Below are positions 23,258-61,149 of a stretch of DNA of 64,000 nucleotides, piece after piece. The stretch covers positions 90,811 to 154,810 of the forward strand of contig CBDHFR010000003.1 in assembly GCA_965262665.1 (NCBI GenBank), read 5' to 3'. The notes below the pieces were generated by a model that worked only from the letters and a program-made list of their open reading frames with translations, was not told the DNA's origin and ran no database searches. Position 1 is the stretch's first letter, and the number at the start of each line of letters is the position of its first letter. The translations under genes and the position numbers were made by a program. The stretch is from Rhodospirillaceae bacterium. GTDB lineage: Bacteria; Pseudomonadota; Alphaproteobacteria; Rhodospirillales; Rhodospirillaceae.

Positions 23258-23332
23258 GCGGGTGTAGCTCAATGGTAGAGCAATAGGGTTCCCACCTTGT
23301 AGATGTCGGTTCAATTCCGTCCACCCGCTCCA
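23258..23332 (+). tRNA. tRNA-Gly(UCC)-like gene with imperfect stems (possibly a pseudo-tRNA)
   Basis: 75 nt. The 7-bp acceptor stem is perfect (GCGGGTG/CACCCGC) with a CCA end, and the D arm is GCTC-AATGGTA-GAGC. The anticodon loop is GTTCCCA (UCC), but only 3 of 5 stem pairs form and position 37 is C. The T stem has one T:T mismatch. Confidence 0.5.
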
Positions 23333-33026: not shown

Positions 33027-34085
33027 ATGCCGGTCATCGACGCCGATACCCACGTCATCGAATGCGAGCAGACCTGGGCCTATATGGATCGGGCCGATGA
33101 GGCGTTACAGCCGAAAATCGTCACCTCGGAAGTTCCGGTCACCCATAAACGGGAGTCTCCCATGGCCGGGCACAGCTTCTGGCTGGTGGATGGGCGCATG
33201 TATATGAAGGGCGGCCAAAAAGCAGCGCGTTATCCGGATGGCACCCGCGACTTGATGGACCCCGATGCCCGCATTGCCCATATGGATGAGCTGGGCGTGG
33301 ACACCCAGGTGCTTATTCCCAGCTTTTTCTTAGGCTCCATTATTGACCATGCCGATACGGAACTGGCGCTGGCTAAAAGTTACAATCGTTGGATGGCGGA
33401 TATTTGTGGCAGCCGGCAGTCACGATTGCGCTGGTTGGTGGTGCCGTCCCTAAAAAATATCGACGCGTCCTGCGCCATGATGGAGGAGGGACAAAAGAAC
33501 GGTGCCGTCGGCGTGATGATGCGCGGCTACGAAGGCAACATCACCATCGATGACCCCTCCTTTAATCCGATTTATCGCAAGGCCGCCGATCTCGACATGG
33601 CGATCGCATTGCACATCGGCAATGGCAGTCCTAGCTTTGACGAAGTGCGCAACACCTCAGGCAAAAAGGGCAACATTGTCGCCTTTATTATGCCCATGGT
33701 TGTGGCCTTCAACGCTTTGATGATGAGCGAAATCCCGCGAAAATATCCCAACTTGCGTTTCGGGTTTCTCGAAGGCGGGTCCATGTGGCTTCCCTTTGTG
33801 CTTAACAAAGCCGACCGTTTTGCCGACACCTATGGCCTCAAACGCACGACAGAGAATGCCCTGGCGGACTCTCGTTTTTATGTCACTTGCGAAGCCCATG
33901 AGGATTTGCCGGAAATCCTCAAGTGGGCGGGCGAATCTAGCCTGGTGGTCGGCACCGACTACGGCCACGCCGATACCTCGACGGAATTGGAAGCGCACCG
34001 GTTGATCATGGAGCGCAACGACCTCCCCGCCGGTGCGGCGCAGCGCATGGTCGATGATAATGCCCGGACGCTTTACGGTTTATAG
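33027..34085 (+). CDS. Amidohydrolase-2 (ACMSD-like, metal-dependent TIM-barrel hydrolase) family
   Basis: It starts at MPVIDADTHVIECEQTW (ATG 33027). Other features are ..HMDELGVDTQVL.. and a C-terminal ..VGTDYGHAD... Confidence 0.8.
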   Translation: MPVIDADTHVIECEQTWAYMDRADEALQPKIVTSEVPVTHKRESPMAGHSFWLVDGRMYMKGGQKAARYPDGTRDLMDPDARIAHMDELGVDTQVLIPSFFLGSIIDHADTELALAKSYNRWMADICGSRQSRLRWLVVPSLKNIDASCAMMEEGQKNGAVGVMMRGYEGNITIDDPSFNPIYRKAADLDMAIALHIGNGSPSFDEVRNTSGKKGNIVAFIMPMVVAFNALMMSEIPRKYPNLRFGFLEGGSMWLPFVLNKADRFADTYGLKRTTENALADSRFYVTCEAHEDLPEILKWAGESSLVVGTDYGHADTSTELEAHRLIMERNDLPAGAAQRMVDDNARTLYGL

Positions 34086-34162
34086 GTTGCGGGCAAGACA
34101 GACTTGTCCATCACGGCCGTAAGGCATCGAGTTGTGCCTAATCTAGTCGGAAGGATTTTTCG

Positions 34163-35221
34163 GTGCCCATAATTGACGCCGATACCCACGTCATCGAATG
34201 CGAACAGACCTGGACTTATATGGATAAGGTTGATGAAGATTTGCGGTCGAAAATCGTAACAACCAGCGCACCGGTGAAGCATTTAGGCGAATCACCCATG
34301 GCCGGACAGAATTTTTGGCTGGTGGACGGCCGCATGTACATTATCGGTGGCCAAAAAGCGGAATGTTATCCGGTGGGTACACGCGATGTCGGTGATCCGG
34401 ACGCGCGGATTGCTCATATGGATGAACTCGGAATTGATACCCAAGTTTTGATTCCAAGTTTTTTCTTGGGCTCGATCATCGGCCGAGCAGACACCGAACT
34501 CGCCCTCGCCAAAAGCTACAACCGTTGGATGGCGGATGTCTGCGTAAGCCGGCAAGCACGATTGCGTTGGTTGGTCGTGCCGTCACTGAAAAACATCGAT
34601 GCAACATGTCTCATGATGGAAGAAGGCCGCAAGAACGGTGCCGTTGAGCTCGTGATGCGCGGCTATGAAGGCAACGTCACCGTCGATGATCCCCGTTTTC
34701 AACCCCTTTACGCCAAGGCCGCGGACCTGGATATGGCCATTATCCTGCACATCGGTAACGGCAGCCCCAGTTTCGACGAGGTGCGTAGTTCATCGGGCAA
34801 GATGGGTAACATCATCGCCTTCATCATGCCCATGGTGGTGGCCTTCAACGCGCTAATGATGAGCGATATTCCAAAGAAATATAAATCTCTACGTTTTGGC
34901 TTTATGGAAGGCGGGTCCATGTGGCTGCCTTTCGTGCTCAACAAGGCTGATCGCTTTGCCGAGACCTATGACCTCAAACGCACCACCGACAATGCCTTGG
35001 CGGACTCTCGTCTATATGTATCCTGCGAGGTCCATGAGAATTTGCCCGATATCTTGAAATGGACGGGTGATGGCAATTTGGTTGTTGGGACCGATTACGG
35101 CCATGCAGATGAATCCATGGAACTCGAGGCACACCGGTTGATTTTGGAACGTGATGACTTACCAGCTGGTGCAGCTCAACGCATGGTCGACGACAATGCA
35201 CAAGCCCTTTACGCTCTATAG
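34163..35221 (+). CDS. Amidohydrolase-2 family, tandem paralogue
   Basis: 352 aa, colinear with the upstream copy and about 80% identical by eye (MPIIDADTHVIECEQTWTYMD...). Confidence 0.8.
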   Translation: MPIIDADTHVIECEQTWTYMDKVDEDLRSKIVTTSAPVKHLGESPMAGQNFWLVDGRMYIIGGQKAECYPVGTRDVGDPDARIAHMDELGIDTQVLIPSFFLGSIIGRADTELALAKSYNRWMADVCVSRQARLRWLVVPSLKNIDATCLMMEEGRKNGAVELVMRGYEGNVTVDDPRFQPLYAKAADLDMAIILHIGNGSPSFDEVRSSSGKMGNIIAFIMPMVVAFNALMMSDIPKKYKSLRFGFMEGGSMWLPFVLNKADRFAETYDLKRTTDNALADSRLYVSCEVHENLPDILKWTGDGNLVVGTDYGHADESMELEAHRLILERDDLPAGAAQRMVDDNAQALYAL

Positions 35222-43588: not shown

Positions 43589-44695
43589 TTATCGGAGGTT
43601 AGAAACGTATACATTACGCCGCGCCTCATTGAGTATCGGGAGGTCTGAGCGGAGCAATACCATCACCTCCGCTACCTTGGTCGGTTCCAGGTCAAAACAT
43701 TCCAGGTCAGAAATTTGCCTAAGGTCATCACCCACCTTCCACCGCAGCCGCTCGCTCACCATTCCGCCCTCTACGCGAAAGAGGATCAGACCTAGAAACT
43801 TGCGTCGCTGTCCCTTTGGGAGATGAGCGTTTACCCAACGGGCCGTGTCGCAATCCGTTGTCAAGAACCGCTCCATGGCCCGGTTACCCTCCCGGACGTA
43901 CATGTCGAAGGCCCAGCAGGGGACACCGCCGATCAGCTCCTCGGCGGGGATGTCATCCGGCCCGGTTCCATGGGGCACGTTTTGGAGTTCCCGCCAAAGC
44001 AGAACAACGAAAGGACAGAGAACCTCACTGCACTTGCGAAAGCCTTCTCGGGCGACCTCGACAATGGCGTCAGGCAAACCCGCCTCCCAGAGAAAGTCGA
44101 AAGCGGCTTGTGGTTCTCCCCGTCTTTTATGCAGATTAACTGACGAATAGCGCTGGGTGCCAACGGCATACCAAAGGGCCAAGGCCCGGGTGAGAAGGTC
44201 GTCTTCACCGACTGCGCATTTTAGTAGACACAAAGTCGGCCTAAAGGACAGGTCAAGCCGGGCTTCTTTGTACTTGGGGCAACTTTCGACAATAACCAGC
44301 AGATCATCAGCTGATCTGCATTTGATGGTCCGCGCCAGGCGGCTTACGAGATAGCTCGCCACCGGCCATTCACCTCCGACATGCGACCGCCATGTCTTAC
44401 CCTTCAGGGCACTTGTGACAAGAAAAACGGATTCTAAGTCCGCAACCCCGATATCCTCATAGGCGGTCACACATAGTCGCCGCCACAGCCGCGCGGGAGA
44501 GATTTGGAGCAGGGTCGCAGCAGCACTCAGTGCCAGGTCCTCTCGCCCACGGCGGATAGCCTTTTGCATCAAGCTCATAGCTAACCATGGCGTGATATTC
44601 AGGGGCTTACATTCGGGTAGGTCCGCCGCGTGATCCTGGACCAGGTCGGCGAGTTGGGTTCGGCAATGTTCGAGAGTTTGGTCTTTGTTCACCAT
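43589..44695 (-). CDS. Protein with an MgsA/WRNIP C-terminal-like helical domain and no ATPase domain
   Basis: The likely start MVNKDQ (ATG 44695) follows AGGAGG. The segment AMSLMQKAIRRGREDLALSAAATLL...LWRRLCVTAYEDIGVADL resembles the MgsA_C segment (..KS.RGSD.DAALYWLARML...RRL...ASEDIG.AD). Confidence 0.5.
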   Translation of the reverse strand: MVNKDQTLEHCRTQLADLVQDHAADLPECKPLNITPWLAMSLMQKAIRRGREDLALSAAATLLQISPARLWRRLCVTAYEDIGVADLESVFLVTSALKGKTWRSHVGGEWPVASYLVSRLARTIKCRSADDLLVIVESCPKYKEARLDLSFRPTLCLLKCAVGEDDLLTRALALWYAVGTQRYSSVNLHKRRGEPQAAFDFLWEAGLPDAIVEVAREGFRKCSEVLCPFVVLLWRELQNVPHGTGPDDIPAEELIGGVPCWAFDMYVREGNRAMERFLTTDCDTARWVNAHLPKGQRRKFLGLILFRVEGGMVSERLRWKVGDDLRQISDLECFDLEPTKVAEVMVLLRSDLPILNEARRNVYVSNLR

Positions 44696-44790
44696 GTCCT
44701 CCTCCTTGAGTTTTCCAAGGGGGAGGACGTGAGACTTCAGTCCCACTATTGACGTTAATCTTGTGACTGCAAATGTAAAGAAAGATTACG
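44645..44790. repeat. ~145-bp direct repeat, copy A (5' end plus upstream region of gene 43589..44695)
   Basis: About 88% identical by eye to 46247-46392. The shared core is GACGTGAGACTTCAGTCCCACTATTGACGTTAAT. Confidence 0.75.
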
Positions 44791-44917
44791 ATTCGTATGG
44801 GTTGACTAAATTTCAAAAAAGGCGGCAAAGGATGCTTTGCCTAACTACAGCAGTTCCTTTTCAAGCACTCTTACACTATTCGAGCAGCACAAATCCCAAA
44901 CGGAGTACAGACGTTTT

Positions 44918-46061: not shown

Positions 46062-46246
46062 TTATTCTCAACACCATTGTCAGACTAAAATCGTATGGTG
46101 GAATTTTCCCATTAATGAGCCAACTTCGTCGTCAGTGCTTGTCCCGTCTAAGCCAAACAAAACCGTTCTTTGCGCCCTGGGATCCCTAAAAGAGGACGGG
46201 GAAAGGCGACCATACAAAATTAATCTGACAATGCCGATCAGCGAGT

Positions 46247-46392
46247 TGAGCTCGGTAATGTTCGAGAATTTGGTCTTTGTTCAGCATGTCCTTCTCCTTG
46301 AGGTTTGCAAGGGGGGAGGACGTGAGACTTCAGTCCCACTATTGACGTTAATCCGGTGTCTGCAAATGTAAAGAGAGATTAGGACGGGTCGG
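46247..46392. repeat. ~145-bp direct repeat, copy B (orphaned promoter plus first ~17 codons)
   Basis: On the minus strand it encodes MLNKDQILEHYRAQLAD, compared with MVNKDQTLEHCRTQLAD in copy A. Homology then ends. Confidence 0.75.
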
Positions 46393-46620: not shown

Positions 46621-47232
46621 TTGAGACGTGTAGACGGTTGCTTCGTGACAGTTTCCGAAGAGTGGAATAACCCTGATCACATGATCACGCCATTGCTATT
46701 TATACGGTGTCATAGTGCCTATAGAGCGGCGTGCGAGAATTCAACAGCTGGCCAAATCGCAGACGTCTTTCCTCATATAAGAGTGTGTTTGGAGTACGCC
46801 GGGTGGGCTCTTCACATGTACAAGAATACTGACTTAGCCGAATTGTGGATTAAGCGGCATGACAATGATCAAACTCTTAGACGGGAGAAAGGTGAGTTCA
46901 ATCCTTCCACAATTAGAGATACTCTGCACAAGACAAACAAGCACGCAGCTAAGAAATTCGACACACTTTACAAACAGGCCATTGATTTTGGTGGTCATCC
47001 AAATGAACGATCTGTAACAGGCAGCCTTGATATGGTTGATTCAAGTGGAGAAAGAATTTTTAAGCAGCTCTTGTTTCATGACGATGACGAGAGCCTTGGC
47101 TTTGCGATGGGTGCTACCTTTGAGTCTGGCATGTGCGCGTTGGAAATATTCCAAGACGTTTTTTCGGCAAGATTTGAGTTGAAGGGAGTGCGCTCCGAGT
47201 TGTTGGAGCTTAAGAGGGAATTTAAGATTTAA
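46621..47232 (+). CDS. Hypothetical helical protein (orphan)
   Basis: 203 aa from TTG, or 183 aa from ATG 46681. It lies in an AT-richer region. No catalytic motif was recognised. Confidence 0.5.
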   Translation: MRRVDGCFVTVSEEWNNPDHMITPLLFIRCHSAYRAACENSTAGQIADVFPHIRVCLEYAGWALHMYKNTDLAELWIKRHDNDQTLRREKGEFNPSTIRDTLHKTNKHAAKKFDTLYKQAIDFGGHPNERSVTGSLDMVDSSGERIFKQLLFHDDDESLGFAMGATFESGMCALEIFQDVFSARFELKGVRSELLELKREFKI

Positions 47233-48556: not shown

Positions 48557-49234
48557 TCACGCCGCCTCGGCAATACACTCAGGCGTGTCGTTCTTCACGC
48601 TATTCACCGCTTTGCTCACCGCACGCACCGTCAGATCATTGCCGTCATAGGGCCTGAGAAGAGCCAAGGCGTCATATGAGACCGTGTTGCCGGATATCCA
48701 CAGGTCATAGTCCCTCTCCGCAAGGATGACAGGCATGCGGTTGTGGTAGGGCTTGACCACCCCATTGGCCTCGGTTGTCACAATGGCGCAGGAGGTCACG
48801 TCCAGTTGGCCGTTGTGCTCCCATATCCCGGCAAAGCTGAACGGGCGTTTATCTTCCATATGAAACCAGTGAGGCTGCTTTGACCCGTCGGACATCATCT
48901 TCCATTCGTAAAACCCGTCCGCCGGGATGAGGCAGCGGTGTTTATTCGCTGCGGTCTTGAACGAGGCCTTTTCCGTGATGGTCTCGGCCCGGGCATTGAT
49001 CATCTTATAAGCGATCTTCTCATCCTTGGCCCAGGGCGGCACTAGGCCCCAGTGGGCGATTGTCATCTCCGGCTCTCCGTCCGGCTGACGCAGGATGGGG
49101 ATATCTTGTGTTGGGGCCACGTTGTAGCGGGGCTTGAAGTGCTCACGCTTGAAATCAGTCTCACGTTCCACAGTCAGGCGGTAAAGCTCATAGATCTCGC
49201 GCCAGGACATTGTCCGTGTGAAGCGCCCGCACAT
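48557..49234 (-). CDS. SOS-response-associated peptidase (SRAP/YedK family, abasic-site crosslinking)
   Basis: It has the N-terminal MCGRF (Cys2 nucleophile), ..YNVAPTQ.., ..HWGLVPPWAK.. and ..NARAETI... Confidence 0.85.
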   Translation of the reverse strand: MCGRFTRTMSWREIYELYRLTVERETDFKREHFKPRYNVAPTQDIPILRQPDGEPEMTIAHWGLVPPWAKDEKIAYKMINARAETITEKASFKTAANKHRCLIPADGFYEWKMMSDGSKQPHWFHMEDKRPFSFAGIWEHNGQLDVTSCAIVTTEANGVVKPYHNRMPVILAERDYDLWISGNTVSYDALALLRPYDGNDLTVRAVSKAVNSVKNDTPECIAEAA

Positions 49235-49482
49235 CAGCCGGGATGTCCTTGTTGGTTAGGCTGAAAGGGTGACCAGTCAGGGATAACGTCTATATTGCTA
49301 CCCCCACAGGCCGAGCACTTAAGCCTGGACCTTATGGCCTGTAACGGTGTCTTGGGTTCAAACCGTTCCAACTCCACCACTCCCCTATGACGGTAGTTAA
49401 GGATTTCGCAATACACGTTTAGCCGAGTAACACTGTTAGCCGTCAAATATTCCACGGCCACTACCATGCGTCCCTTAGCCAT
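49234..49482 (-). CDS. Small hypothetical protein upstream of SRAP
   Basis: 82 aa. Its stop overlaps the SRAP start by 1 nt. It has a single CSAC motif. Confidence 0.4.
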   Translation of the reverse strand: MAKGRMVVAVEYLTANSVTRLNVYCEILNYRHRGVVELERFEPKTPLQAIRSRLKCSACGGSNIDVIPDWSPFQPNQQGHPG

Positions 49483-49591: not shown

Positions 49592-49963
49592 CTTGCGAGA
49601 CCTGATCCAATTTGGGCACAGTCTCTCCATGCAAGACAGTGCGAATGCTCTTTGGCCTGACGTATAGCGCGACAATCTGAATGAGAGTTGCGCGACAATC
49701 TGGATAAGAGTTTTGACGTCGCGACGGAGTGGATAGTTTAGATGTTTCTTCTCGATTGCAAGAGCTTTTGCGCCAATTCTGTTTGTCGCGCCGCGACAAT
49801 CAGAATTGCGCTGTTGGGTTTCAGTGTTGGTGTCAATGAACGCGTAATCGCAGGTCAATGCAGCTGAGATTCCATCCATGCTAGTTGGATCGGTTGTGGC
49901 CGCGAGCTGGGAGCTCCGCGGGCCACGTTACAGCAAAGGTGCTGTCGGGGTGGATTCGGGAGC

Positions 49964-50794
49964 TCAGTCGGACGTGGTGTTCTTGGTGGTCGCTCTCGAC
50001 GCCGGCCGGCCGCGTTTTCGTTTGCTTTCTTCAATCGCGGCACGGCGACGGTAGCTCTCGACGTTCATCTCAAGGATCGTGGCACGGTGGACCAGACGGT
50101 CGACGGCAGCCACCGCCGTTGTTTCGTCGGGGAACACTTTGTGCCATTCGCCAAAGGGCTGATTGGCTGTGATTAGAAGTGACCGGCGCTCGTACCTGAC
50201 CGAGATGAGTTCGAACAGCACACTCGTTTCGGCTTGATCCTTGCGCACATAGGCGAAGTCATCGAGGATCACGAGGTGATAGCGGTCCAGTTTCGCCAGC
50301 AGGTTCTCCAGCGTCAGGTCCCGCCGGGCCACCTGCAGCCGCTGCACCAGGTCGGTGGTGCGGGTAAAGAGCACCCGGTACCCACTTTCCACCAGGGCCA
50401 GCCCGATTGCCGAGGCAAGGTGCGATTTTCCCGCACCTGGCGGGCCAAAAATCAAACAGCAGACGGCCTTGGTCGAGCCATGCGTCGCCGGCCGCAAGCG
50501 CCATGACCTGGGCCTTGGAGATCGTCGGCACGACGTTGAAGTCGAAGTTGGCCAGGCTCTTGCCGGGCAACAGCTTCGCCTCGTTCAGGTGGCGCTGGAT
50601 ACGCCCGCGGGCACGTTTCGCCAGTTCGTGCTCGGCGAGGGCGGTGAGGAACCGCGCCGCCGGCCAGCCCTCGGCATTGGCGCGTTCGCTGAAGCTGCGC
50701 CAGATATCCTTCATTGTCGGCAACCGGAGTTCCGTCAGCAACAGATCGAGCTTGAGTGCATCGACCTTGTTGGCGGCGTCATCGCGTGTCTTCG

Positions 50795-50798
<4 letters not shown>
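49964..50798 (-). pseudogene. istB: IS21 IstB ATPase, frameshifted
   Basis: The N-terminal part is ORF 50259..50798. Walker A GPPGAGKSHLA lies in ORF 49964..50497. The frames change near 50470. Confidence 0.8.
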
Positions 50799-51635
<837 letters not shown>

Positions 51636-51741
51636 TCAACTTGTTTGTCGCGCTGCTGTCACCTTGATTGCCGCGAAATACTGACGTCTCGGACCTTAGT
51701 TGCGCACCTTCAAATTGGACGGTTTGGAAAAGGGAACGCAT

Positions 51742-52602
51742 ATGTCTAACCTTTCAATTAAAAACTATAGCATTCTCTTCAATGCTAGCTGGCACACGAC
51801 GGGGCTCTCGAAAAGTATTTCCAAAATCAATCGCGGTATCCTTTACAGGGAATATGAAGAATTAAGACGTTGCGCTCCGCGACGCTCGGACAGGGGAAAG
51901 AGGTATTTTGTCGATGGACACGACGGAAACCTTTTGACGATGGGCGGTAGCAACCGCTTCGAGGAGCACCTGGCAATCGCGATCTGGCGCATAAAGGGAC
52001 TTTGGCCGCGCCCGGGTAGGGGTAGGTTTCGTCTGCTTGACTATCAATTTCCGCTAAAGGCCCATCAGTCGGATAAAGGTATCGGTAAGGTCGATCTGTT
52101 CGGCATCACAGTTGACAACAGACCAATGGTTATCGAGTTGAAGGTTAGGCCACAGCAGGACAATAGCCGGGGTGAGAGCCCCGTGGCTGCTTTGATGCAA
52201 GGGCTTCGCTATGCCGCCATTGTGGAGGCTAACCAGGACGCGATTGCGAAGGAAGTAAGGGACATTTGTAATGTGAAAATCGTCAAGGCACCACCGATTG
52301 TGCAAATACTCGCACCAGAGGGGTGGTGGCATGGCTGGTTGGAACTTCACGGTTCAACTCGCAAAGCTGCGGGGTGTTGGGAACCGGAGTTCGCCAAGCT
52401 CGCCCATGATATCGAAGGGCAATTAGGCGTCGTCGTCGAGTGTGTCGCGCTTGAAGACTTCAGTCATGCCGACATCGTCTACGGTTCAGACGGCATGAGC
52501 CACAGATCAACCACATCCCCCTACTTTATCCCGTTCGACCAGGTGAGGCCCAAGCTATCGGACCTGCTTTGCCTGCCCTCCGACCTGAAAGCTAAGCAAT
52601 GA
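51742..52602 (+). CDS. PD-(D/E)xK (RecB/Cas4-like) nuclease-fold protein, uncharacterised
   Basis: ATG 51742. The core is GKVDLFGITVDNRPMVIELKV (D...ExK), followed by QxxxY (ALMQGLRY). The family was not recognised. Confidence 0.6.
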   Translation: MSNLSIKNYSILFNASWHTTGLSKSISKINRGILYREYEELRRCAPRRSDRGKRYFVDGHDGNLLTMGGSNRFEEHLAIAIWRIKGLWPRPGRGRFRLLDYQFPLKAHQSDKGIGKVDLFGITVDNRPMVIELKVRPQQDNSRGESPVAALMQGLRYAAIVEANQDAIAKEVRDICNVKIVKAPPIVQILAPEGWWHGWLELHGSTRKAAGCWEPEFAKLAHDIEGQLGVVVECVALEDFSHADIVYGSDGMSHRSTTSPYFIPFDQVRPKLSDLLCLPSDLKAKQ

Positions 52603-53558
52603 CACGTTACGCCAACTATGAAAGTGCGTTGCTCCAAACTATGTGGACTTGGGCAGACCAGCATCATCAAGGTGAGTTCGATGGGATCGAACGGCATGGG
52701 CGCCCCCCTGTTCTCGCAGACAGGTTTGCCTCAAAGAATATCTTGGTTCCACGGAATAGCCGAAAGGCGCACGAAATCCGGGCCGCCATCCCGGAGCGTG
52801 AGAGACACCGGTGGTTTACCAGCTTGAAGAGCTCCCAAGCCTTAGCACAAAGCTTTTTTGGGGCGATCCGTGCTTTCAACCGCCTCGATTTACTACAAGA
52901 TGTGCCCACAGAGTGTGGACGACCGGCCTTCTTTGAAGGTCTTCACGGCTCAACACTTGAATTTGAGCATGAGGTGCGTGGGCTGGGAGAGCCGAGACCG
53001 ACCAGTATCGACGTATTGCTCCGTGGGCCGCAAAAGCGAATCGCCATCGAATGCAAGTTCACTGAGCGGGAGTTTGGCACCTGCTCCCGCCCGAGGCTGC
53101 GTCCTGGCGATAAAACCTATCCTGAACAGCACTGCGACGGTAGTTATCGGATTCAACGTGGTCGCCGCGAGCGCTGTGCCTTGACAGAAATCGGTGTCCA
53201 GTACTGGCAGCATCTACCTCAACTCTTCGATTGGACGGCAGATTGCGACCATGTACCGTGCCCCTTGGAAGATGTTTACCAACTGGCACGAAACGCCCTT
53301 GCCGCCACTCTCACTCCTGACGGTGCGATAGACCAGACTACCGGGCATGCCCTTGTCGTTTACGATGCTCGCAACCCCGAGTTCCAGGAGGGTGGCAAGG
53401 CCGAGATAAAATGGGCTTCAGCGACCTTAGACTGTCGTATACTAGGATTTTTGCGCCGCTTAAGCTGGCAAAGTCTGTTGGCTACTTTGGCCGATGCGCC
53501 GGAATTGGCTTATCTCGTTGACGGGGTACAAACGAAATACGGCTTGAAGCCAGAGTGA
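52599..53558 (+). CDS. Second PD-(D/E)xK-like nuclease-fold protein, Cys-rich, uncharacterised
   Basis: Its start overlaps the upstream stop (ATGA). The core is TSIDVLLRGPQKRIAIECKF. It has SSQALAQSFFG upstream and several Cys downstream. Confidence 0.55.
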   Translation: MTRYANYESALLQTMWTWADQHHQGEFDGIERHGRPPVLADRFASKNILVPRNSRKAHEIRAAIPERERHRWFTSLKSSQALAQSFFGAIRAFNRLDLLQDVPTECGRPAFFEGLHGSTLEFEHEVRGLGEPRPTSIDVLLRGPQKRIAIECKFTEREFGTCSRPRLRPGDKTYPEQHCDGSYRIQRGRRERCALTEIGVQYWQHLPQLFDWTADCDHVPCPLEDVYQLARNALAATLTPDGAIDQTTGHALVVYDARNPEFQEGGKAEIKWASATLDCRILGFLRRLSWQSLLATLADAPELAYLVDGVQTKYGLKPE

Positions 53559-53637: not shown

Positions 53638-54128
53638 TCACAATTCAGAAACGGAAGCTAATTCAGACCAGAAATGTTTTAGCTTCTTGAAATGTCCGTT
53701 TGCCGGAGATGGGTCAGGCACCATCGCTATGACCGTTTCGCCCACGGTGATATGGGAAATGCCCCAACCTGAATTCTTGCCGAGACAGCCTATGGCAGGA
53801 TTCCTTCCCAGGAACGCAAGCACTTTCGGAGCATGGTTAAGCACAAGCTTTTTCTTAATGCTTTTCGGTCCCAGTCCGTTGGTTCAGTGCCGTCACCATG
53901 GACCGAATTTTTCATCAAGTCCGTCAAACCTATCCCGTAGTCTAAGAGCCTTTGGTCTTCTTCAGGCCTCAGCACCCGTGGTGTTAATCCGACTTCGTGC
54001 AGGGTTCCCCAGAAGCGGTGACTTGGGTTTGAAAAATAGTGACCCGTTAAAGCGGACTGAGGTCCGGCGTTATACCCGCAAAACAGAATCCTAAGATTGC
54101 CACCAACGATATCGGGTAAGACAGGCAT
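53638..54128 (-). pseudogene. mug: G:T/U mismatch-specific DNA glycosylase (Mug/TDG, UDG family 2), frameshifted
   Basis: LRILFCGYNAGPQSALTGHYFSNPSHRFWGTLHEVGLTP matches my memory of E. coli Mug (VVFCGINPG...HPANRFW). The C-terminal part (..APKVLAFLG...VPDPSPANG) is in another frame. The shift maps to the T5 run at 53849-53853. Confidence 0.75.
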
Positions 54129-54327
54129 CAGAACGGCTTCGGCAACTTCTCTGCATATACCATAGGTCAGCGTTATATCATTGAAATCCGCTTGGCCTGT
54201 ATGAATCAAGTCACGAATTATGTGCTGGTCGCCTGGTCCCATACCCCCACCAATACAGACAATCCTTGTGTCGTGATCATGCCCGGTAACGTGATGTTGG
54301 GCCTCCCAACCGCCTGTAAAGGGGATT

Positions 54328-55583: not shown

Positions 55584-56990
55584 CTAAAAGTCATCCTGCT
55601 TTGGAAGTGACCATTCCCACCAGGACATATTGTTATCGTCGTGGGTCTTTTTCTTTTTCACTCCGATCTTTTTTGCTGCTCTTTGTAACGTCGACTTCGA
55701 GTGTCCGTTCTCTTTGGCAATCTTGGCAAGTTTCTTTTGTGAAACTGGACCATTTGCTAGCACCTCTTGAAGAAATTCGACAGCGTCGGCAATGGCACTC
55801 GCTGTTTGGGGGTTGGTCGTTGAAACAACGTCATTCGCTGAATATTCCGTCAACCCAATCATTTTTATAGCACCCGCTTCCCATTTATTTCCTTCTTCGG
55901 TAATGCCGGATTTGCTTTCTATACAAAAGCGCCAAGCCACAGGCTTTTTTGCTAGATTGGCTTTCACAGGCACCAAGACCTGTGAATTTGCGTCGTCTGG
56001 CGCTGGAGCAATCAGCAATGCGGAACGCACAGAAGCAATCAGGCCGATTGACCCGCCGCCTCGATACATGGCGGTTGTTTCACTATTCTTGGTGAGGTGT
56101 CGTACAGCAATTATCGTGAGATGACATTCTTCTGCCAGAGTCTTTAGCGGACCTAAGGCTCTTCTGACGTGTTGATCCTTATGAGAGTTTGTTTGCTCAG
56201 AGAGAAAAGCGACCAGAGGCTCTATGATTAGGAGCCTAATGTCATGATCTTCGCAGTACTTCTGCAAGAAGTCTAAGTCATCAGGAATAGAGATTAAGCG
56301 ACGGTTTCCGCTTGCATCTTCTAATTCACTTATCAAATGCACCCGCTTCACGTCTGCACCAGAAGCGCAGAGTCGCGGGACAACGGTTGTACTTAAGTTG
56401 TCCTCAATGCTTAGAATTGCTGCTGAGCCAGGGTCACAAGGTGTGCTATCAGGAAGAGGAAGGCCAGCGGATTGGATCGCCGCGAGGTAGCAGCAAAAGG
56501 TGGACTTGCCAACTCCAGGGTCGCCTTCGACAAGAGTGGTAGCTTCGCGTGGAATTAATCCAGGTAAAAACCACTGAGTCTCTGTAGGGGCCACGTCACT
56601 GGCTAATACAGCCTTTAGCTCACCAGAGAAGTTTGAGCCATTTTGGCAATGCGTATGCTCTTTTAGCCCGAGCCACTGACAACATTTCTTTGCAACCTCC
56701 TCGCCGACTTCTCCCAACAATTGGATTGCGATTGGCCAACCGTTGACAGTTTCCTTTTTCGCAATCTTGGATGCAGTGGCTTTGACAGCCTTTGCTCGAC
56801 TCGTTGCTTCTTCATCACCTGCAAATTTAGCAGCTTCGAAAATTAGCTTCTCCACAAGAGCGGGGTCACATCCGTTGCGGATCATAGCGCCAGCATAGGC
56901 TAAGGCTAGATTCTGCCGCTCACCATTCGTTTTGGGCCATGTACAAGCAAGGAGTGCGGCTACCGCCAGCTGATTTGTTCGCTGGCGCAA
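55584..56990 (-). CDS. RecA-like (AAA_25/RepA-type) replicative helicase/ATPase with C-terminal HTH
   Basis: Walker A is GDPGVGKSTFCCYLAA and Walker B is LLIIEPL. The C-terminal segment is ..KKLAKIAKENGHSKSTLQRAAKKIG... The start is TTG. Confidence 0.8.
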   Translation of the reverse strand: MRQRTNQLAVAALLACTWPKTNGERQNLALAYAGAMIRNGCDPALVEKLIFEAAKFAGDEEATSRAKAVKATASKIAKKETVNGWPIAIQLLGEVGEEVAKKCCQWLGLKEHTHCQNGSNFSGELKAVLASDVAPTETQWFLPGLIPREATTLVEGDPGVGKSTFCCYLAAIQSAGLPLPDSTPCDPGSAAILSIEDNLSTTVVPRLCASGADVKRVHLISELEDASGNRRLISIPDDLDFLQKYCEDHDIRLLIIEPLVAFLSEQTNSHKDQHVRRALGPLKTLAEECHLTIIAVRHLTKNSETTAMYRGGGSIGLIASVRSALLIAPAPDDANSQVLVPVKANLAKKPVAWRFCIESKSGITEEGNKWEAGAIKMIGLTEYSANDVVSTTNPQTASAIADAVEFLQEVLANGPVSQKKLAKIAKENGHSKSTLQRAAKKIGVKKKKTHDDNNMSWWEWSLPKQDDF

Positions 56991-57475
56991 GGCTTACCGT
57001 CAACCAATGAGGGCATTCCAGCTCTCCCGTCTTTGAATTGTATCTGTTCGCCGCTTGGATGTACCGAAGGAGGAACCGTAACTAGTCGATTACCCCCTCG
57101 GAGCTCCAATAGAATTGTCGTCTTTCCGTGAAGAATTGTTTTGTATACGACAGTCTCAATCTCTTCCTGAGCACGGTAGAGGTAATGACTACCAGGAGCT
57201 GAGGCACGACCAAATACACAGTCCGTGTCACCAAGAAACTGTGAAGCTAGCGCCCTTACCTCAGCAGAATCCATATCGATATCGACGAGTTGGCCATATT
57301 CCTTGCCAAGTCGAAGGGATACGCCGTTGTTGGACCCAAATTCGTCTTGTGAATTGACAGGATCAAAAGTGTACTCTGTCCACTTCACAGAAGGTTTCTT
57401 TGTCTTGGGACTCAACGGGATTGGGAACAGACCGTTTTCATGATAGATCTTCGCGACAATGATTGGCGACGACAA
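56960..57475 (-). CDS. Prim-Pol (bifunctional DNA primase/polymerase N-terminal) domain protein
   Basis: 171 aa. It has ..FPIPLSPKTKKPSVKW.. and the acidic motif VDIDMDS. It overlaps the helicase ORF by 31 nt in another frame. Confidence 0.7.
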   Translation of the reverse strand: MSSPIIVAKIYHENGLFPIPLSPKTKKPSVKWTEYTFDPVNSQDEFGSNNGVSLRLGKEYGQLVDIDMDSAEVRALASQFLGDTDCVFGRASAPGSHYLYRAQEEIETVVYKTILHGKTTILLELRGGNRLVTVPPSVHPSGEQIQFKDGRAGMPSLVDGKPCASEQISWR

Positions 57476-59878: not shown

Positions 59879-60949
59879 TCATTTTAGAAAGATCTTCTTA
59901 TTCATAGACCTAACAACCTTGGTCGTATGGTCATCCGACAAGTGCGCATACCGCGCAACCATTTGGTACGTCTTATGACCCAGAACGCTTGCTATTTCTG
60001 GAAGCGAGGCACCGTTCATAGCTAGATAACTAGCCGTACAATGCCTTAGATCATGAAACCGAAAATTCGAGATGTCGGCTTGTCTTAGGGCGGTATACCA
60101 AGATTTTTTTATGTCCAACCGCCCAGTCAGGCCGTTGCCCGGAAAGACAAGCTCGCTTTCTGACGCGCCGCCTTTGAACATTTCTTCAAGAACTGCCTTT
60201 GCTTTGCCAACCAAAGGCACAGCCCGGCGTTCATCGTTCTTGGCTTTTTGGATTATTATTCTCTCATGTTTGAAATCGATATCATCCCACTTTAATGACA
60301 ATATCTCGCTCTTTCGCATTCCAGTGGAGAGAGCCAATACGACGATTGGGTACAGGAATTTGCTACTGCTCCTCCGGCAGACATCCAAGAGTTTTTCTCT
60401 TTCCGCTTCTGAAAGAAACCTAACGCGGGGGCTCGGCTCTTTGAGCTTTGACACATCGCGCATTGGTGACTCATTTAGCCATCTCCACTCCCTCACTGCG
60501 ACGTTCAGGGCATGCGACAGAGCTGCCAGATATCGATTTACAGTCGCCCAACTAATCGCTTCACCGGCCCTGCTCTTTCGCCTAGTTAACCGGTTACGAC
60601 AGTCCACAATCAGGTCAGGTGAAAGGTCAGCGAGTTTCAAGGTTCCAAGTTGATCTCTCCACCACAAGAGCTGTTGTTTTCGTGTGGGAAATGATCGAGG
60701 TCTATTTGGCAGGACCTCTAAAATGTATCGATCTATCAGTTCACGAACGGTGCGCTTTTTGGCTTCAGCAACGTGACTGAATCGGCGCTCGTCGATCGCT
60801 GTTTCGACTGATCGCGCCCATTGCTGGGCGTCGGTCTTGCGTTCGAAGGTCATCGACTGCGCAGGAAACCCACGTTTCCGCACGAGCGCCCTATACCGGG
60901 TCTTTCCGTCCTTAGTGTTTCTCTTCTCGATTGTTGCCACCGGCTGCAC
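59879..60949 (-). CDS. int: Tyrosine site-specific integrase adjacent to tRNA-Lys
   Basis: 356 aa. Catalytic motifs are ..LALSTGMRKSEIL.., ..FHDLRHCTAS.. and ..GHKTYQMVARYAHL... Its 5' end lies 125 nt from the tRNA 3' end. Confidence 0.9.
   Translation of the reverse strand: MQPVATIEKRNTKDGKTRYRALVRKRGFPAQSMTFERKTDAQQWARSVETAIDERRFSHVAEAKKRTVRELIDRYILEVLPNRPRSFPTRKQQLLWWRDQLGTLKLADLSPDLIVDCRNRLTRRKSRAGEAISWATVNRYLAALSHALNVAVREWRWLNESPMRDVSKLKEPSPRVRFLSEAEREKLLDVCRRSSSKFLYPIVVLALSTGMRKSEILSLKWDDIDFKHERIIIQKAKNDERRAVPLVGKAKAVLEEMFKGGASESELVFPGNGLTGRLDIKKSWYTALRQADISNFRFHDLRHCTASYLAMNGASLPEIASVLGHKTYQMVARYAHLSDDHTTKVVRSMNKKIFLK

Positions 60950-61073: not shown

Positions 61074-61149
<76 letters not shown>

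What the first reader, a model, noticed from the sequence alone, without database searches (positions are those of the whole stretch)
51700..53558. Translationally coupled pair of PD-(D/E)xK nuclease-like genes with no methyltransferase: candidate undescribed defence module
ORF A (ATG 51742, 287 aa) has a mid-protein D...ExK core (GKVDLFGITVDNRPMVIELKV) followed by a QxxxY motif (ALMQGLRY), as in RecB/Cas4-like nucleases. ORF B (319 aa) has its own core (TSIDVLLRGPQKRIAIECKF) and several downstream Cys that could bind metal. The stop of A and the start of B overlap (ATGA, 52599-52602). No DNA methyltransferase, ATPase or helicase partner is adjacent; the neighbours are an IS21 remnant and a broken mug. 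The pair lies in AT-richer cargo DNA of a tRNA-Lys integrative element that has its own replication module. Satellites and islands often carry anti-phage genes in this kind of slot. I do not recognise the pair as any named system.
Basis: partly seen in the sequence, partly recalled or inferred. Interest (0 to 1): 0.78.

Follow-up and report, generated by a model that had tools for sequence, protein, structure and literature searches.

The report
Conserved two-nuclease gene pair, function untested
Two overlapping genes on an integrated mobile element encode two different DNA-cutting enzymes that are inherited together and sometimes fused in many bacteria; they probably form one two-part nuclease without a protective methylase, perhaps an anti-invader defence, but nobody has tested it.

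Summary
ORF A (51742-52602, 286 aa) and ORF B (52599-53558, 319 aa) overlap by ATGA, and both keep an invariant PD-(D/E)xK catalytic core.

- **B is not unknown.** It is a clear member of Pfam PF22558 "REase-ARP" (102 bits, cut-off 27). That family is defined by computation only; I found no experimental work on it.
- **A has no curated model.** It matches nothing in Pfam, NCBIfam, PADLOC or PHROGs. It is a distant NucS-C/RecB-like nuclease, and its family has about 1,000 clusters at 50% identity.
- **The pairing is real.** 29 of 37 informative A loci have an adjacent REase-ARP gene. A and B distances co-vary (r=0.94). At least six independent lineages encode full A-to-B fusions with both active sites intact.
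- **The pairing is not obligate.** B often occurs alone, inside islands rich in R-M, NACHT, toxin-antitoxin and HEPN genes. On rhizobial plasmids it pairs with an unrelated DUF2726 protein instead. A also occurs alone.
- **No known system matches.** There is no methyltransferase in the 64 kb window, no PADLOC v2 model hit, and no close solved structure.

Most likely this is a heteromeric, methyltransferase-independent DNA endonuclease carried as mobile cargo. Defence is plausible but unproven. I rate it a new variant of a known kind, of moderate interest.

The parts
51742..52602 (+). ORF A, 286 aa. An uncharacterised PD-(D/E)xK nuclease family, distantly like the NucS C-terminal domain and RecB nucleases. 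It is the usual upstream partner of REase-ARP genes.
   Evidence: ORF. No hit in Pfam, NCBIfam, PADLOC or PHROGs. 22 of 41 family members weakly hit NucS_C, best E=9e-4. AF2 model pLDDT 88.7, pTM 0.88. Best Foldseek matches are NucS/EndoMS, SduA, Exo5, SfsA, AdnA and ACE1, all E>=0.09. Family size 1,043 clusters at 50% identity.
51730..51735 (+). AAGGGA, a Shine-Dalgarno-like site 6 nt upstream of the ATG of A.
   Evidence: Read directly from the sequence. Inference only.
52084..52146 (+). Catalytic core of A: D118 ... E132-x-K134 (GKVDLFGITVDNRPMVIELKV). The upstream acidic residue E74 is encoded at 51961-51963.
   Evidence: E74, D118, E132 and K134 are invariant in 41 homologues and kept in at least 118 of 121 family representatives.
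52189..52212 (+). Helix of A carrying the [E/Q]153-x-x-x-Y157 motif (ALMQGLRY), as found in NucS-C and RecB-type nucleases.
   Evidence: Y157 is kept in 116 of 121 representatives; position 153 is E in 83 and Q in 34.
52599..52602 (+). ATGA overlap: start codon of B and stop codon of A. This implies translational coupling.
   Evidence: In related loci the two genes lie 9-172 nt apart by HMM envelope ends, or are fused.
52599..53558 (+). ORF B, 319 aa. A member of Pfam PF22558 REase-ARP, a PD-(D/E)xK restriction-endonuclease-like family.
   Evidence: PF22558 E=4.8e-29, 102.3 bits against a cut-off of 27; PF20796 PDDEXK_13 is sub-threshold. AF2 model pLDDT 81.8, pTM 0.84. Foldseek matches are weak and all to PD-(D/E)xK nucleases: SduA, AF1548, Hjc, OkrAI, Can1/Can2, Cdn1, McrC.
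53001..53060 (+). Catalytic core of B: D138 ... E151-C-K153 (TSIDVLLRGPQKRIAIECKF).
   Evidence: D138, E151, K153 and Q228 are invariant in every clade examined, including distant ones and the rhizobial plasmid clade.
53082..53261 (+). Cys-rich insert of B (C162, C179, C193, C221), lying between the ExK strand and the YQLARN helix. A candidate metal-binding site (Zn or Fe-S).
   Evidence: The four Cys are invariant in the main clade, in the rhizobial clade and in all 7 full fusions, but absent from distant clades. AF2 pLDDT is below 50 for residues 161-192 and 216-219. Metal binding is inferred, not shown.

Best explanation
A and B are the two subunits of one methyltransferase-independent DNA endonuclease, carried as cargo by mobile elements and variable islands. 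Its most likely role is to restrict foreign DNA.

Proposed mechanism:
- Translational coupling through the ATGA overlap produces the two proteins together, and they assemble into a heteromer. This step is inferred, but it is strongly supported by recurrent full-length A-to-B fusions and by co-divergence of the two proteins.
- Each subunit contributes its own intact PD-(D/E)xK active site. In A this is E74/D118/E132/K134 with the [E/Q]xxxY helix; in B it is D138/E151/K153 with Q228. The complex could therefore cut both strands, or combine two activities such as nicking plus end-processing. This step is inferred.
- B (REase-ARP) is the self-sufficient core, because it also occurs alone. Its four-Cys insert probably holds a structural metal (inferred).
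- A is a NucS-C-like accessory nuclease that changes or gates what the core cuts.
- With no methyltransferase, self-protection must come from the substrate. Candidates are modified bases (Type IV logic) or abnormal structures such as flaps, mismatches, ssDNA and replication intermediates (NucS, Shedu or Upx logic). Which of these applies is unknown.
For: - **Real, conserved genes with active-site conservation:**
- **B is a member of REase-ARP:**
- **A is a NucS_C/RecB-like nuclease:**
- **Adjacency:** 29 of 37 informative A-containing loci have an adjacent REase-ARP gene. In 28 it lies directly downstream on the same strand. This holds even for A relatives at about 30% identity, whose partners hit only PF22558.
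- **Rosetta-stone fusions:** six independent clusters at 50% identity encode full A-to-B fusions of 576-642 aa. P0280, a member of one of them, is found identically in three independent samples. Both catalytic sites are intact in all of them.
- **Co-divergence:** A-A and B-B distances correlate with r=0.94 (n=14 pairs; Mantel p=2e-4).
- **No methyltransferase:** none is next to the pair, and no MTase motif occurs in the 64 kb window.
- **Context:** here the pair sits on a tRNA-Lys integrative element. Elsewhere it lies beside Mrr, Schlafen/AlbA, WYL, Type IIG R-M, NACHT, AAA_15+DUF4276, ApeA-HEPN, PLD and toxin-antitoxin genes.
- **Distribution:** patchy across phyla (Chloroflexi, Nitrospinae, Alphaproteobacteria) at 60-75% identity, which suggests horizontal transfer.
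- **Precedents for MTase-less PD-(D/E)xK defence nucleases:** Upx (PMC13099982), END nucleases (PMC12191111) and Madara, which has a NucS-like domain (bioRxiv 10.64898/2026.09.05.749240).
Against: - There is no experimental evidence of any kind. Neither protein matches any PADLOC v2.0.0 model.
- Several loci sit among ordinary metabolic genes.
- The pairing is not obligate. B is solo in all 4 B-seeded genome loci, and solo B proteins are intermixed with paired ones in the tree. A is solo in at least 5 distinct loci. So neither protein strictly needs the other.
- No modified-base reader or other sensor domain was detected, so how self is told from non-self is unexplained.
- Very high conservation (60-75% identity across phyla) is unusual for fast-evolving defence genes.
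- No A homologue was found on plasmids or viral contigs.
- My enrichment judgement rests on about a dozen contexts, not on statistics.
Confidence: 0.45

Rival explanations
1. A DNA repair or recombination accessory. The NucS-like subunit A and the REase-like subunit B would process mismatches, flaps or branched replication intermediates, either for the host or for the island's own Prim-Pol/AAA_25 replicon.
For: A's only sequence and fold affinities are to NucS/EndoMS, Exo5, SfsA, AdnA and Hjc-type repair and resolution nucleases. The window island also carries SRAP, a UDG/mug fragment and a replication module. Some loci sit in housekeeping contexts. The high sequence conservation fits a conserved substrate.
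Against: The distribution is patchy and horizontally transferred, unlike a core repair pathway. A lacks the NucS N-terminal domain and scores far below the NucS threshold (12.7 bits against 216). The pair often sits next to R-M, toxin-antitoxin, NACHT and HEPN genes. In this window the pair lies between an IS21 remnant and a broken gene, not inside the replication operon.
Confidence: 0.15
2. A selfish addiction or inter-element competition module. One nuclease would be toxic and the other would restrain it, or the pair would attack competing elements, stabilising the mobile element that carries it rather than protecting the host.
For: The pair lies on an integrative element next to IS remnants. 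It is frequently adjacent to toxin-antitoxin pairs elsewhere. It has a tight two-gene, translationally coupled architecture. It is highly conserved and horizontally spread.
Against: Both partners keep intact catalytic sites, and neither looks like a small labile antitoxin. B survives alone in many genomes and A alone in others, which is hard to square with a strict toxin-antidote pair. Fusion into one polypeptide is unusual for toxin-antitoxin pairs.
Confidence: 0.15
3. An orphan or unlinked classical restriction enzyme. B, with A as a second subunit, would be a Type II-like REase whose protective methyltransferase lies elsewhere in the genome.
For: Pfam classifies B as a restriction-endonuclease-fold family. 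Heterodimeric Type II enzymes exist, and the small subunit of R.BspD6I and Nt.BspD6I appear among the weak fold matches. One solo B lies next to a C5 methyltransferase.
Against: No MTase is linked in the window or in any A-B locus examined. The C5 MTase in L048 has its own overlapping 251 aa partner gene. The Type IIG enzymes beside solo B genes align from residue ~12 to fused REase-MTase models, so they appear self-contained. Identity of 60-75% across phyla is unlike typical Type II REases.
Confidence: 0.1
4. In this particular window the pair is inert leftover cargo: intact reading frames that are not expressed, stranded between an IS21 remnant and a broken mug gene.
For: The flanks are degraded: IS21 fragments and a truncated UDG. 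No sigma-70-like promoter was found upstream.
Against: Both ORFs are full length with all conserved residues. A near-identical copy exists on an independent metagenome contig. The promoter scan is a crude consensus test.
Confidence: 0.08

Closest known systems
Pfam PF22558 REase-ARP ('Restriction Endonuclease associating with ARP')
   Same: B is a bona fide member (102 bits against a cut-off of 27). It has the PD-(D/E)xK core. The family name implies a fixed genomic partner, which fits the A-B pairing found here.
   Different: The family is defined only by computation. I found no paper, structure or experiment for it. I could not find out what 'ARP' stands for. That A is 'ARP' is my inference from co-occurrence. 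A itself has no Pfam model.
NucS/EndoMS (mismatch and branched-DNA endonuclease), C-terminal PD-(D/E)xK domain
   Same: A's core (D...ExK followed by an [E/Q]xxxY helix) gives weak but consistent NucS_C hits in 22 of 41 members. NucS structures 2vld and 5gke are the best Foldseek matches.
   Different: Scores are far below family thresholds. TM-scores are about 0.26-0.31. A lacks the NucS N-terminal DNA-binding domain and has its own N- and C-terminal regions, including the invariant APRR motif and W195/W196. NucS acts as a homodimer without a REase partner (from my own knowledge of the family).
Upx (Gao et al. single-protein defence system; dual PD-(D/E)xK nuclease, PMC13099982)
   Same: Two PD-(D/E)xK nuclease modules cooperate, in Upx within one polypeptide and here in the fused A-B forms. 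There is no methyltransferase. It is an anti-phage nuclease.
   Different: No sequence or profile similarity: neither protein hits any PADLOC v2 model, though I did not confirm that the library includes Upx. No Upx structure appears in the Foldseek top 50. In Upx the N-terminal nuclease is atypical and auto-inhibited, whereas here both sites are canonical. This is an analogy, not membership.
MTase-less, modification-dependent (Type IV-like) nucleases: Madara (NucS-like nuclease plus EVE-like domain; bioRxiv 10.64898/2026.09.05.749240) and END nucleases (PMC12191111)
   Same: A PD-(D/E)xK or REase-like nuclease without a cognate methyltransferase, located in defence islands. Madara's nuclease is described as NucS-like.
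   Different: Those proteins carry a recognisable modified-base or lesion-reader domain (EVE-like, or inactive EndoIII). No such domain was detected in A or B. A did not hit PADLOC PDC-S11, which is Madara. Modification dependence is untested here.
Shedu (SduA, DUF4263)
   Same: A stand-alone PD-(D/E)xK defence nuclease without a methyltransferase. SduA structures 8ps4 and 8ps5 are among the top weak fold matches for both A and B.
   Different: Matches are weak: E 0.07-0.6 and TM below 0.31. There is no PADLOC Shedu hit. Shedu is a single-gene homo-oligomer.
Heterodimeric Type II restriction enzymes (such as R.BspD6I and BbvCI)
   Same: Two different PD-(D/E)xK subunits, each presumably cutting one strand.
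   Different: Those systems have cognate methyltransferases; this pair has none. Only very weak fold similarity was seen.

Membership tests
Pfam PF22558 REase-ARP (protein B) | Whole-protein HMM score at or above the gathering threshold (27 bits) | tested here: met
   102.3 bits, E=4.8e-29, covering profile positions 20-270 of 270.
Pfam PF22558 REase-ARP (protein B) | PD-(D/E)xK catalytic residues present | tested here: met
   D138, E151 and K153 are invariant across all clades examined.
Pfam PF22558 REase-ARP (protein B) | Genomic association with 'ARP' | tested here: inconclusive
   I could not find what 'ARP' means. A conserved upstream partner (family A) exists in 29 of 37 A-seeded loci, and a DUF2726 partner on rhizobial plasmids. 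Equating A with ARP is inference.
PD-(D/E)xK nuclease superfamily (protein A) | Core fold with conserved acidic residues and lysine (E...D...ExK) | tested here: met
   E74, D118, E132 and K134 are kept in at least 118 of 121 representatives. The AF2 secondary structure is helix, then four strands, then helix, then strand. The top Foldseek matches (ranks 1-10) are all PD-(D/E)xK nucleases, though weak at E>=0.09.
NucS/EndoMS family (protein A) | Score above the NCBIfam or Pfam threshold, and presence of the N-terminal NucS domain | tested here: not met
   NF003270 gives 12.7 bits against a cut-off of 216. NucS_C best E=9e-4 is sub-threshold. No NucS_N hit.
Cas4/RecB-like nucleases (protein A) | Significant profile match and a four-Cys Fe-S cluster | tested here: not met
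   PADLOC Cas4 E=0.037. PDDEXK_1 is hit by only 4 of 41 members. No Cys is invariant in A.
Type II restriction-modification system | Cognate DNA methyltransferase linked to the endonuclease | tested here: not met
   No MTase among the neighbours. No MTase motif combination in the 64 kb window, by a crude motif scan. None next to other A-B pairs.
Type IV (modification-dependent) restriction | Nuclease joined to a modified-base reader domain, and cleavage dependent on modification | tested here: inconclusive
   No known reader domain (SRA, EVE, YTH, winged helix and so on) was detected by Pfam in A or B. Modification dependence cannot be tested with these tools.
Named anti-phage systems in PADLOC-DB v2.0.0 (such as Shedu and Hachiman, plus the PD-T4/T7/Lambda and PDC candidates) | Significant match to any system model | tested here: not met
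   A: only Cas4 at 0.037 and PDC-S18 at 0.063. B: nothing at E<=1. Divergent B and the DUF2726 partner: nothing. Systems described after 2023 could not be screened systematically.
Type II toxin-antitoxin pair | A toxin that needs its cognate antitoxin gene, and a small non-catalytic antitoxin | tested here: not met
   Both proteins are about 300 aa with intact catalytic sites. Each occurs without the other. Toxicity itself was not tested.

The most novel reading that the evidence does not exclude
The A + REase-ARP pair, and its fused form, is an undescribed and widespread immune nuclease with two active sites. The NucS-like subunit would recognise an abnormal DNA feature of invaders (modified bases, mismatches, flaps or replication intermediates) and license cleavage by the REase-ARP subunit. 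That would give methylation-independent discrimination between self and non-self. REase-ARP would then be a modular effector that has recruited different sensor-nucleases (family A, DUF2726) in different lineages.
Probability: 0.3. Interest if true: 0.7.

Novelty: new variant of a known kind. Interest (0 to 1): 0.55.

Why it matters
If the pair is a working heteromeric nuclease, it adds a compact two-gene, methyltransferase-free module to the set of DNA-targeting systems carried by mobile elements.

- It is abundant: about 1,000 A clusters at 50% identity, with more B sequences than A in the word-indexed search.
- REase-ARP appears in several forms: solo, paired with A, fused to A, or paired with DUF2726. 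This gives a natural experiment in how an effector nuclease gains accessory subunits and how self-cleavage is avoided without methylation.
- Practically, protein A has no model in Pfam, NCBIfam, PADLOC v2 or PHROGs, so these libraries give it no name, and no PADLOC v2 model matches either protein. A profile for A, plus the pairing rule, would fix that.
- If it turns out to be a repair or element-maintenance factor instead, it would be a new NucS-related pathway outside Actinobacteria and Archaea.

Tried and rejected
- **Meaning of 'ARP' and literature on PF22558/PF20796.** Four full-text searches found nothing relevant. The source is probably outside the searchable library.
- **Profile searches against PDB sequences.** Nothing for A or B.
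- **Foldseek against PDB and BFVD.** Only weak PD-(D/E)xK matches, with no E<=1e-3. No close structural relative, so no function can be transferred.
- **A and B as paralogues.** Rejected: hhalign probability 0.5%.
- **The rhizobial DUF2726 partner as an A homologue.** Rejected: hhalign probability 0.1%.
- **B as the missing REase of the neighbouring large N6-MTase genes in L045 and L046.** Rejected: those genes align from residue ~12 to PADLOC's fused Type IIG REase-MTase models.
- **B as the partner of the C5 MTase in L048.** Unlikely: that MTase has its own overlapping 251 aa downstream gene.
- **The first 'fusions' (P0073, P0078, P0085, P0191, P0238).** Each is truncated on one side and could be an assembly frameshift. 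I relied instead on full-length fusions seen in independent samples.
- **att repeat of the tRNA-Lys island.** Not found.
- **Promoter and terminator scan.** Uninformative.
- **Public names for the proteins.** None.
- **The single-protein genome-contig scan.** As a result, B-seeded co-occurrence rests on 4 complete-genome loci plus the plasmid collection.
- **A on plasmids or viral contigs.** No match.
Full report
**1. What is in the sequence**

Two same-strand ORFs are present as reported. A runs from ATG 51742 to the stop ending at 52602 and is 286 aa. B runs 52599-53558 and is 319 aa. B's ATG overlaps A's TGA as ATGA at 52599-52602.

An AAGGGA Shine-Dalgarno-like site lies 6 nt before A's ATG. 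B has none of note, which fits translational coupling. Homologue N-termini support ATG 51742 rather than the upstream TTG at 51700. The quoted motifs are at A residues 115-135 and 150-157 and at B residues 135-154.

The surroundings are as described:
- IS21 remnants at 49964-51626
- a truncated UDG/mug at 53790-54242
- an AAA_25 gene plus Prim-Pol replication module at 55584-57475
- an IS4/5 transposase, a tyrosine integrase at 59879-60949, and tRNA-Lys at 61074-61149
- SRAP at 48557-49234

A near-identical copy of the region exists on an independent metagenome contig (L002).

The pair's GC content (0.527 and 0.551) is only slightly below the window mean of 0.563. The clearly AT-rich part is 54-58 kb. 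I found no tRNA-derived att repeat, so the island's far edge is undefined. A crude motif scan finds no DNA methyltransferase signature anywhere in the window.

**2. What the two proteins are**

*Protein B* is a clear member of Pfam PF22558, 'REase-ARP, Restriction Endonuclease associating with ARP' (E=4.8e-29, 102 bits against a cut-off of 27). It also has a sub-threshold hit to PDDEXK_13. It has no hit in NCBIfam, PADLOC v2.0.0 or PHROGs.

In 40 close homologues, D138, E151, K153, Q228 and R231 are invariant, along with C106, C152, C162, C179, C193 and C221. Across all clades, including very distant ones, D138, E151, K153 and Q228 stay invariant. The four-Cys insert (162-221) is present in the main clade and the rhizobial clade but missing from distant clades.

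The AF2 model is confident (pLDDT 81.8, pTM 0.84) except in that Cys-rich insert. Foldseek against the PDB gives only weak matches, all to PD-(D/E)xK nucleases: SduA, AF1548, Hjc, OkrAI, Can1/Can2, Cdn1 and McrC.

*Protein A* hits no curated model. The only traces are Cas4 at 0.037, NucS at 0.049 and PDC-S18 at 0.063. Scanning all 41 aligned members individually, 22 give weak NucS_C hits (best 9e-4) and 4 hit PDDEXK_1.

E74, D118, E132 and K134 are invariant in close homologues and kept in at least 118 of 121 family representatives. Y157 is kept in 116 of 121, and position 153 is E or Q.

The AF2 model is confident (pLDDT 88.7, pTM 0.88). The best Foldseek matches are NucS/EndoMS (2vld, 5gke), then SduA, Exo5, SfsA, AdnA and the Cas4-family ACE1, all weak at E>=0.09. 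The viral structure library adds nothing closer.

PDB sequence-profile searches find nothing for either protein. A and B are not detectably homologous to each other. So both are PD-(D/E)xK nucleases with intact catalytic residues, from two different families, and neither has a solved or characterised close relative.

**3. Are they a unit?**

*Adjacency.* Of 37 A-containing loci with enough flanking DNA, 29 have a REase-ARP gene next to A. In 28 it lies directly downstream on the same strand, with 9-172 nt between HMM envelopes; in one (L001) it is convergent. Collapsing near-duplicate contigs gives about 22 of 29. This holds for A relatives at only about 30% identity, whose partners are so diverged that they match PF22558 but not the close-homologue profile.

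*Fusions.* Six independent clusters at 50% identity encode full-length A-to-B fusions of 576-642 aa, in the same order as the gene pair. P0280, a member of one of them, is encoded identically in one NCBI assembly and two unrelated SRA assemblies. Both catalytic sites and the four Cys are intact in all seven fusion proteins checked.

*Co-divergence.* Pairwise distances of A and of B across 14 main-clade pairs correlate with r=0.94. Across all 19 pairs r=0.84, with Mantel p=2e-4.

Together these make a physical and functional partnership very likely.

**4. The pairing is not obligate**

All four B-seeded loci from large genomes lack any trace of A within 10 kb on either side, even with HMMER filters off. 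These solo B proteins are intermixed with paired ones in a tree. Intact A genes without B also occur in L003, L006/L007, L017, L035, L054 and L055.

On 38 rhizobial plasmids a distant REase-ARP (about 35% identity) is preceded, 90 nt upstream, by a DUF2726 protein that is not homologous to A. In one case it is followed by a T5orf172/GIY-YIG gene. A has no match on plasmids or viral contigs.

My reading is that REase-ARP is a self-sufficient nuclease core that has repeatedly gained and lost an accessory nuclease.

**5. Context**

A-B or solo-B loci lie beside:
- Mrr, Schlafen/AlbA, WYL, a PDDEXK_4 gene and ParE/Phd (L005)
- a self-contained Type IIG R-M, NACHT and HicB/Phd (L045)
- AAA_15+DUF4276, SACS/NOV_C, a Type IIG R-M, DUF5677, VapBC and ApeA-HEPN (L046)
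- AddAB, a C5 MTase with its own partner gene, DUF5677, HicAB and PLD (L048)
- three integrases and an IS (L054)
- the tRNA-Lys integrative element of this window

Others sit among metabolic genes (L004, L047, L051, L055). This is suggestive of defence or mobile cargo, but it is about a dozen observations, not a statistic.

**6. Mechanism I commit to**

*Shown:* there are two distinct nuclease families with intact catalytic residues, inherited together and often fused, with no linked methyltransferase.

*Inferred:*
- They form a heteromer whose two active sites act on DNA. Either each cuts one strand, or the complex couples nicking to processing.
- B is the core and A is a NucS-like accessory that alters or gates substrate choice.
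- B's Cys insert binds a structural metal.
- The role is restriction of foreign DNA, with self spared through substrate features rather than methylation.

*Unknown:* which substrate feature is recognised.

Published precedents make this plausible. Upx is a dual PD-(D/E)xK single-protein defence nuclease that acts on ssDNA and replication intermediates (PMC13099982). END nucleases are MTase-less REase-like proteins that restrict hypermodified phages (PMC12191111). Madara is a NucS-like nuclease plus EVE-like reader that acts as a Type IV enzyme (bioRxiv 10.64898/2026.09.05.749240). None of them is homologous to A or B by the tests run here.

**7. Rivals**

- **Repair or recombination accessory.** Supported by the NucS, Exo5 and Hjc affinities, the high conservation and some housekeeping contexts. 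Opposed by the patchy, transferred distribution and the island contexts.
- **Addiction or competition module.** Supported by mobile-element carriage and toxin-antitoxin neighbours. Opposed by two catalytic partners, solo occurrences and fusions.
- **Classical REase with an unlinked methyltransferase.** No methyltransferase is linked in any A-B locus.
- **Inert cargo in this window.** The flanks are degraded, but the ORFs are perfect.

**8. Comparison and novelty**

B is a member of a known, curated but uncharacterised family. The Pfam name suggests that curators already noticed a fixed partner, which I infer to be family A. A has no model in any library searched. The pair matches no PADLOC v2 system, and I found no paper on it.

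The general kind, an MTase-independent PD-(D/E)xK nuclease module on mobile DNA, is well known. The specific two-family heteromer or fusion architecture, and its modular partner swapping, are not described. I therefore rate it a new variant of a known kind. Interest is moderate (0.55): it is a solid, testable and abundant candidate, but its function is unproven and the concept is not surprising.

- Only one of the two proteins falls in a named family, and that family is uncharacterised.
- Neighbours are conserved.
- Both models show the nuclease fold, though only weakly by Foldseek.

The finding survives, with the corrections given above.

Noticed in passing
L049:5197-7384 and L050:5197-7615 (Rhizobium plasmids CP001077.1 and NZ_CP021027.1): A three-gene arrangement found on rhizobial plasmids: a DUF2726 protein with a hydrophobic N-terminus, then a distant REase-ARP 90 nt downstream, then a small gene (T5orf172/GIY-YIG in L050, weak DUF6998 in L049). 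REase-ARP matches occur on 38 plasmids; I examined the neighbours in two. This is a second, independent two-nuclease pairing of REase-ARP.
   Followed up: partly
window 46621-47232; L046:16716-17780; L048:11129-12076: DUF5677-family genes recur within a few kb of REase-ARP genes in three unrelated loci. The window hit is weak (E=0.009); the other two are about 1e-6. This could be chance in defence islands or a loose association. None has a PADLOC hit.
   Followed up: partly
window 23258-23332: A second tRNA gene (Rfam tRNA 55 bits, E=4e-9) for which ARAGORN could not assign an amino acid ('tRNA-???', anticodon given as 'cc'). It may have an unusual anticodon loop or be degenerate.
   Followed up: partly
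window 44646-44791 and 46238-46384: A segment of about 145 nt is repeated 1.59 kb apart at 88-90% identity. It overlaps the 5' end and upstream region of the minus-strand gene at 43589-44746, which suggests two paralogous genes with a shared regulatory or leader region at the edge of the low-GC island.
   Followed up: no
window 33028-35191: A tandem duplication with 1,136 nt spacing: two 300 nt blocks at 74-77% identity. Probably two diverged paralogous genes in tandem.
   Followed up: no
window 49667-49712: Two adjacent 23 nt direct repeats (GCGCGACAATCTGAATGAGAGTT and a 91% identical copy), lying between the SRAP operon and the IS21 remnant. Possibly a transposon end or a binding site.
   Followed up: no
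L006:227-3011 and L007:116-2900: A subgroup of A-family proteins (386-388 aa) has an N-terminal extension of about 135 aa with no Pfam match. These lack a REase-ARP neighbour and are followed instead by an HTH_3/XRE regulator and an uncharacterised protein of about 330 aa.
   Followed up: partly
L046:4731-6526: An AAA_15/AAA_21 ATPase plus a DUF4276 gene pair, an architecture like the PARIS system (from memory, not tested), lies 3.5 kb upstream of a solo REase-ARP gene, followed by a 1,065 aa SACS/NOV_C protein.
   Followed up: no
window 48557-49482: An SRAP (YedK-like abasic-site sensor) gene overlaps by one base a small 82 aa ORF that contains a CxxC pair. Both are on the minus strand inside the island, next to the IS21 remnant.
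   Followed up: no
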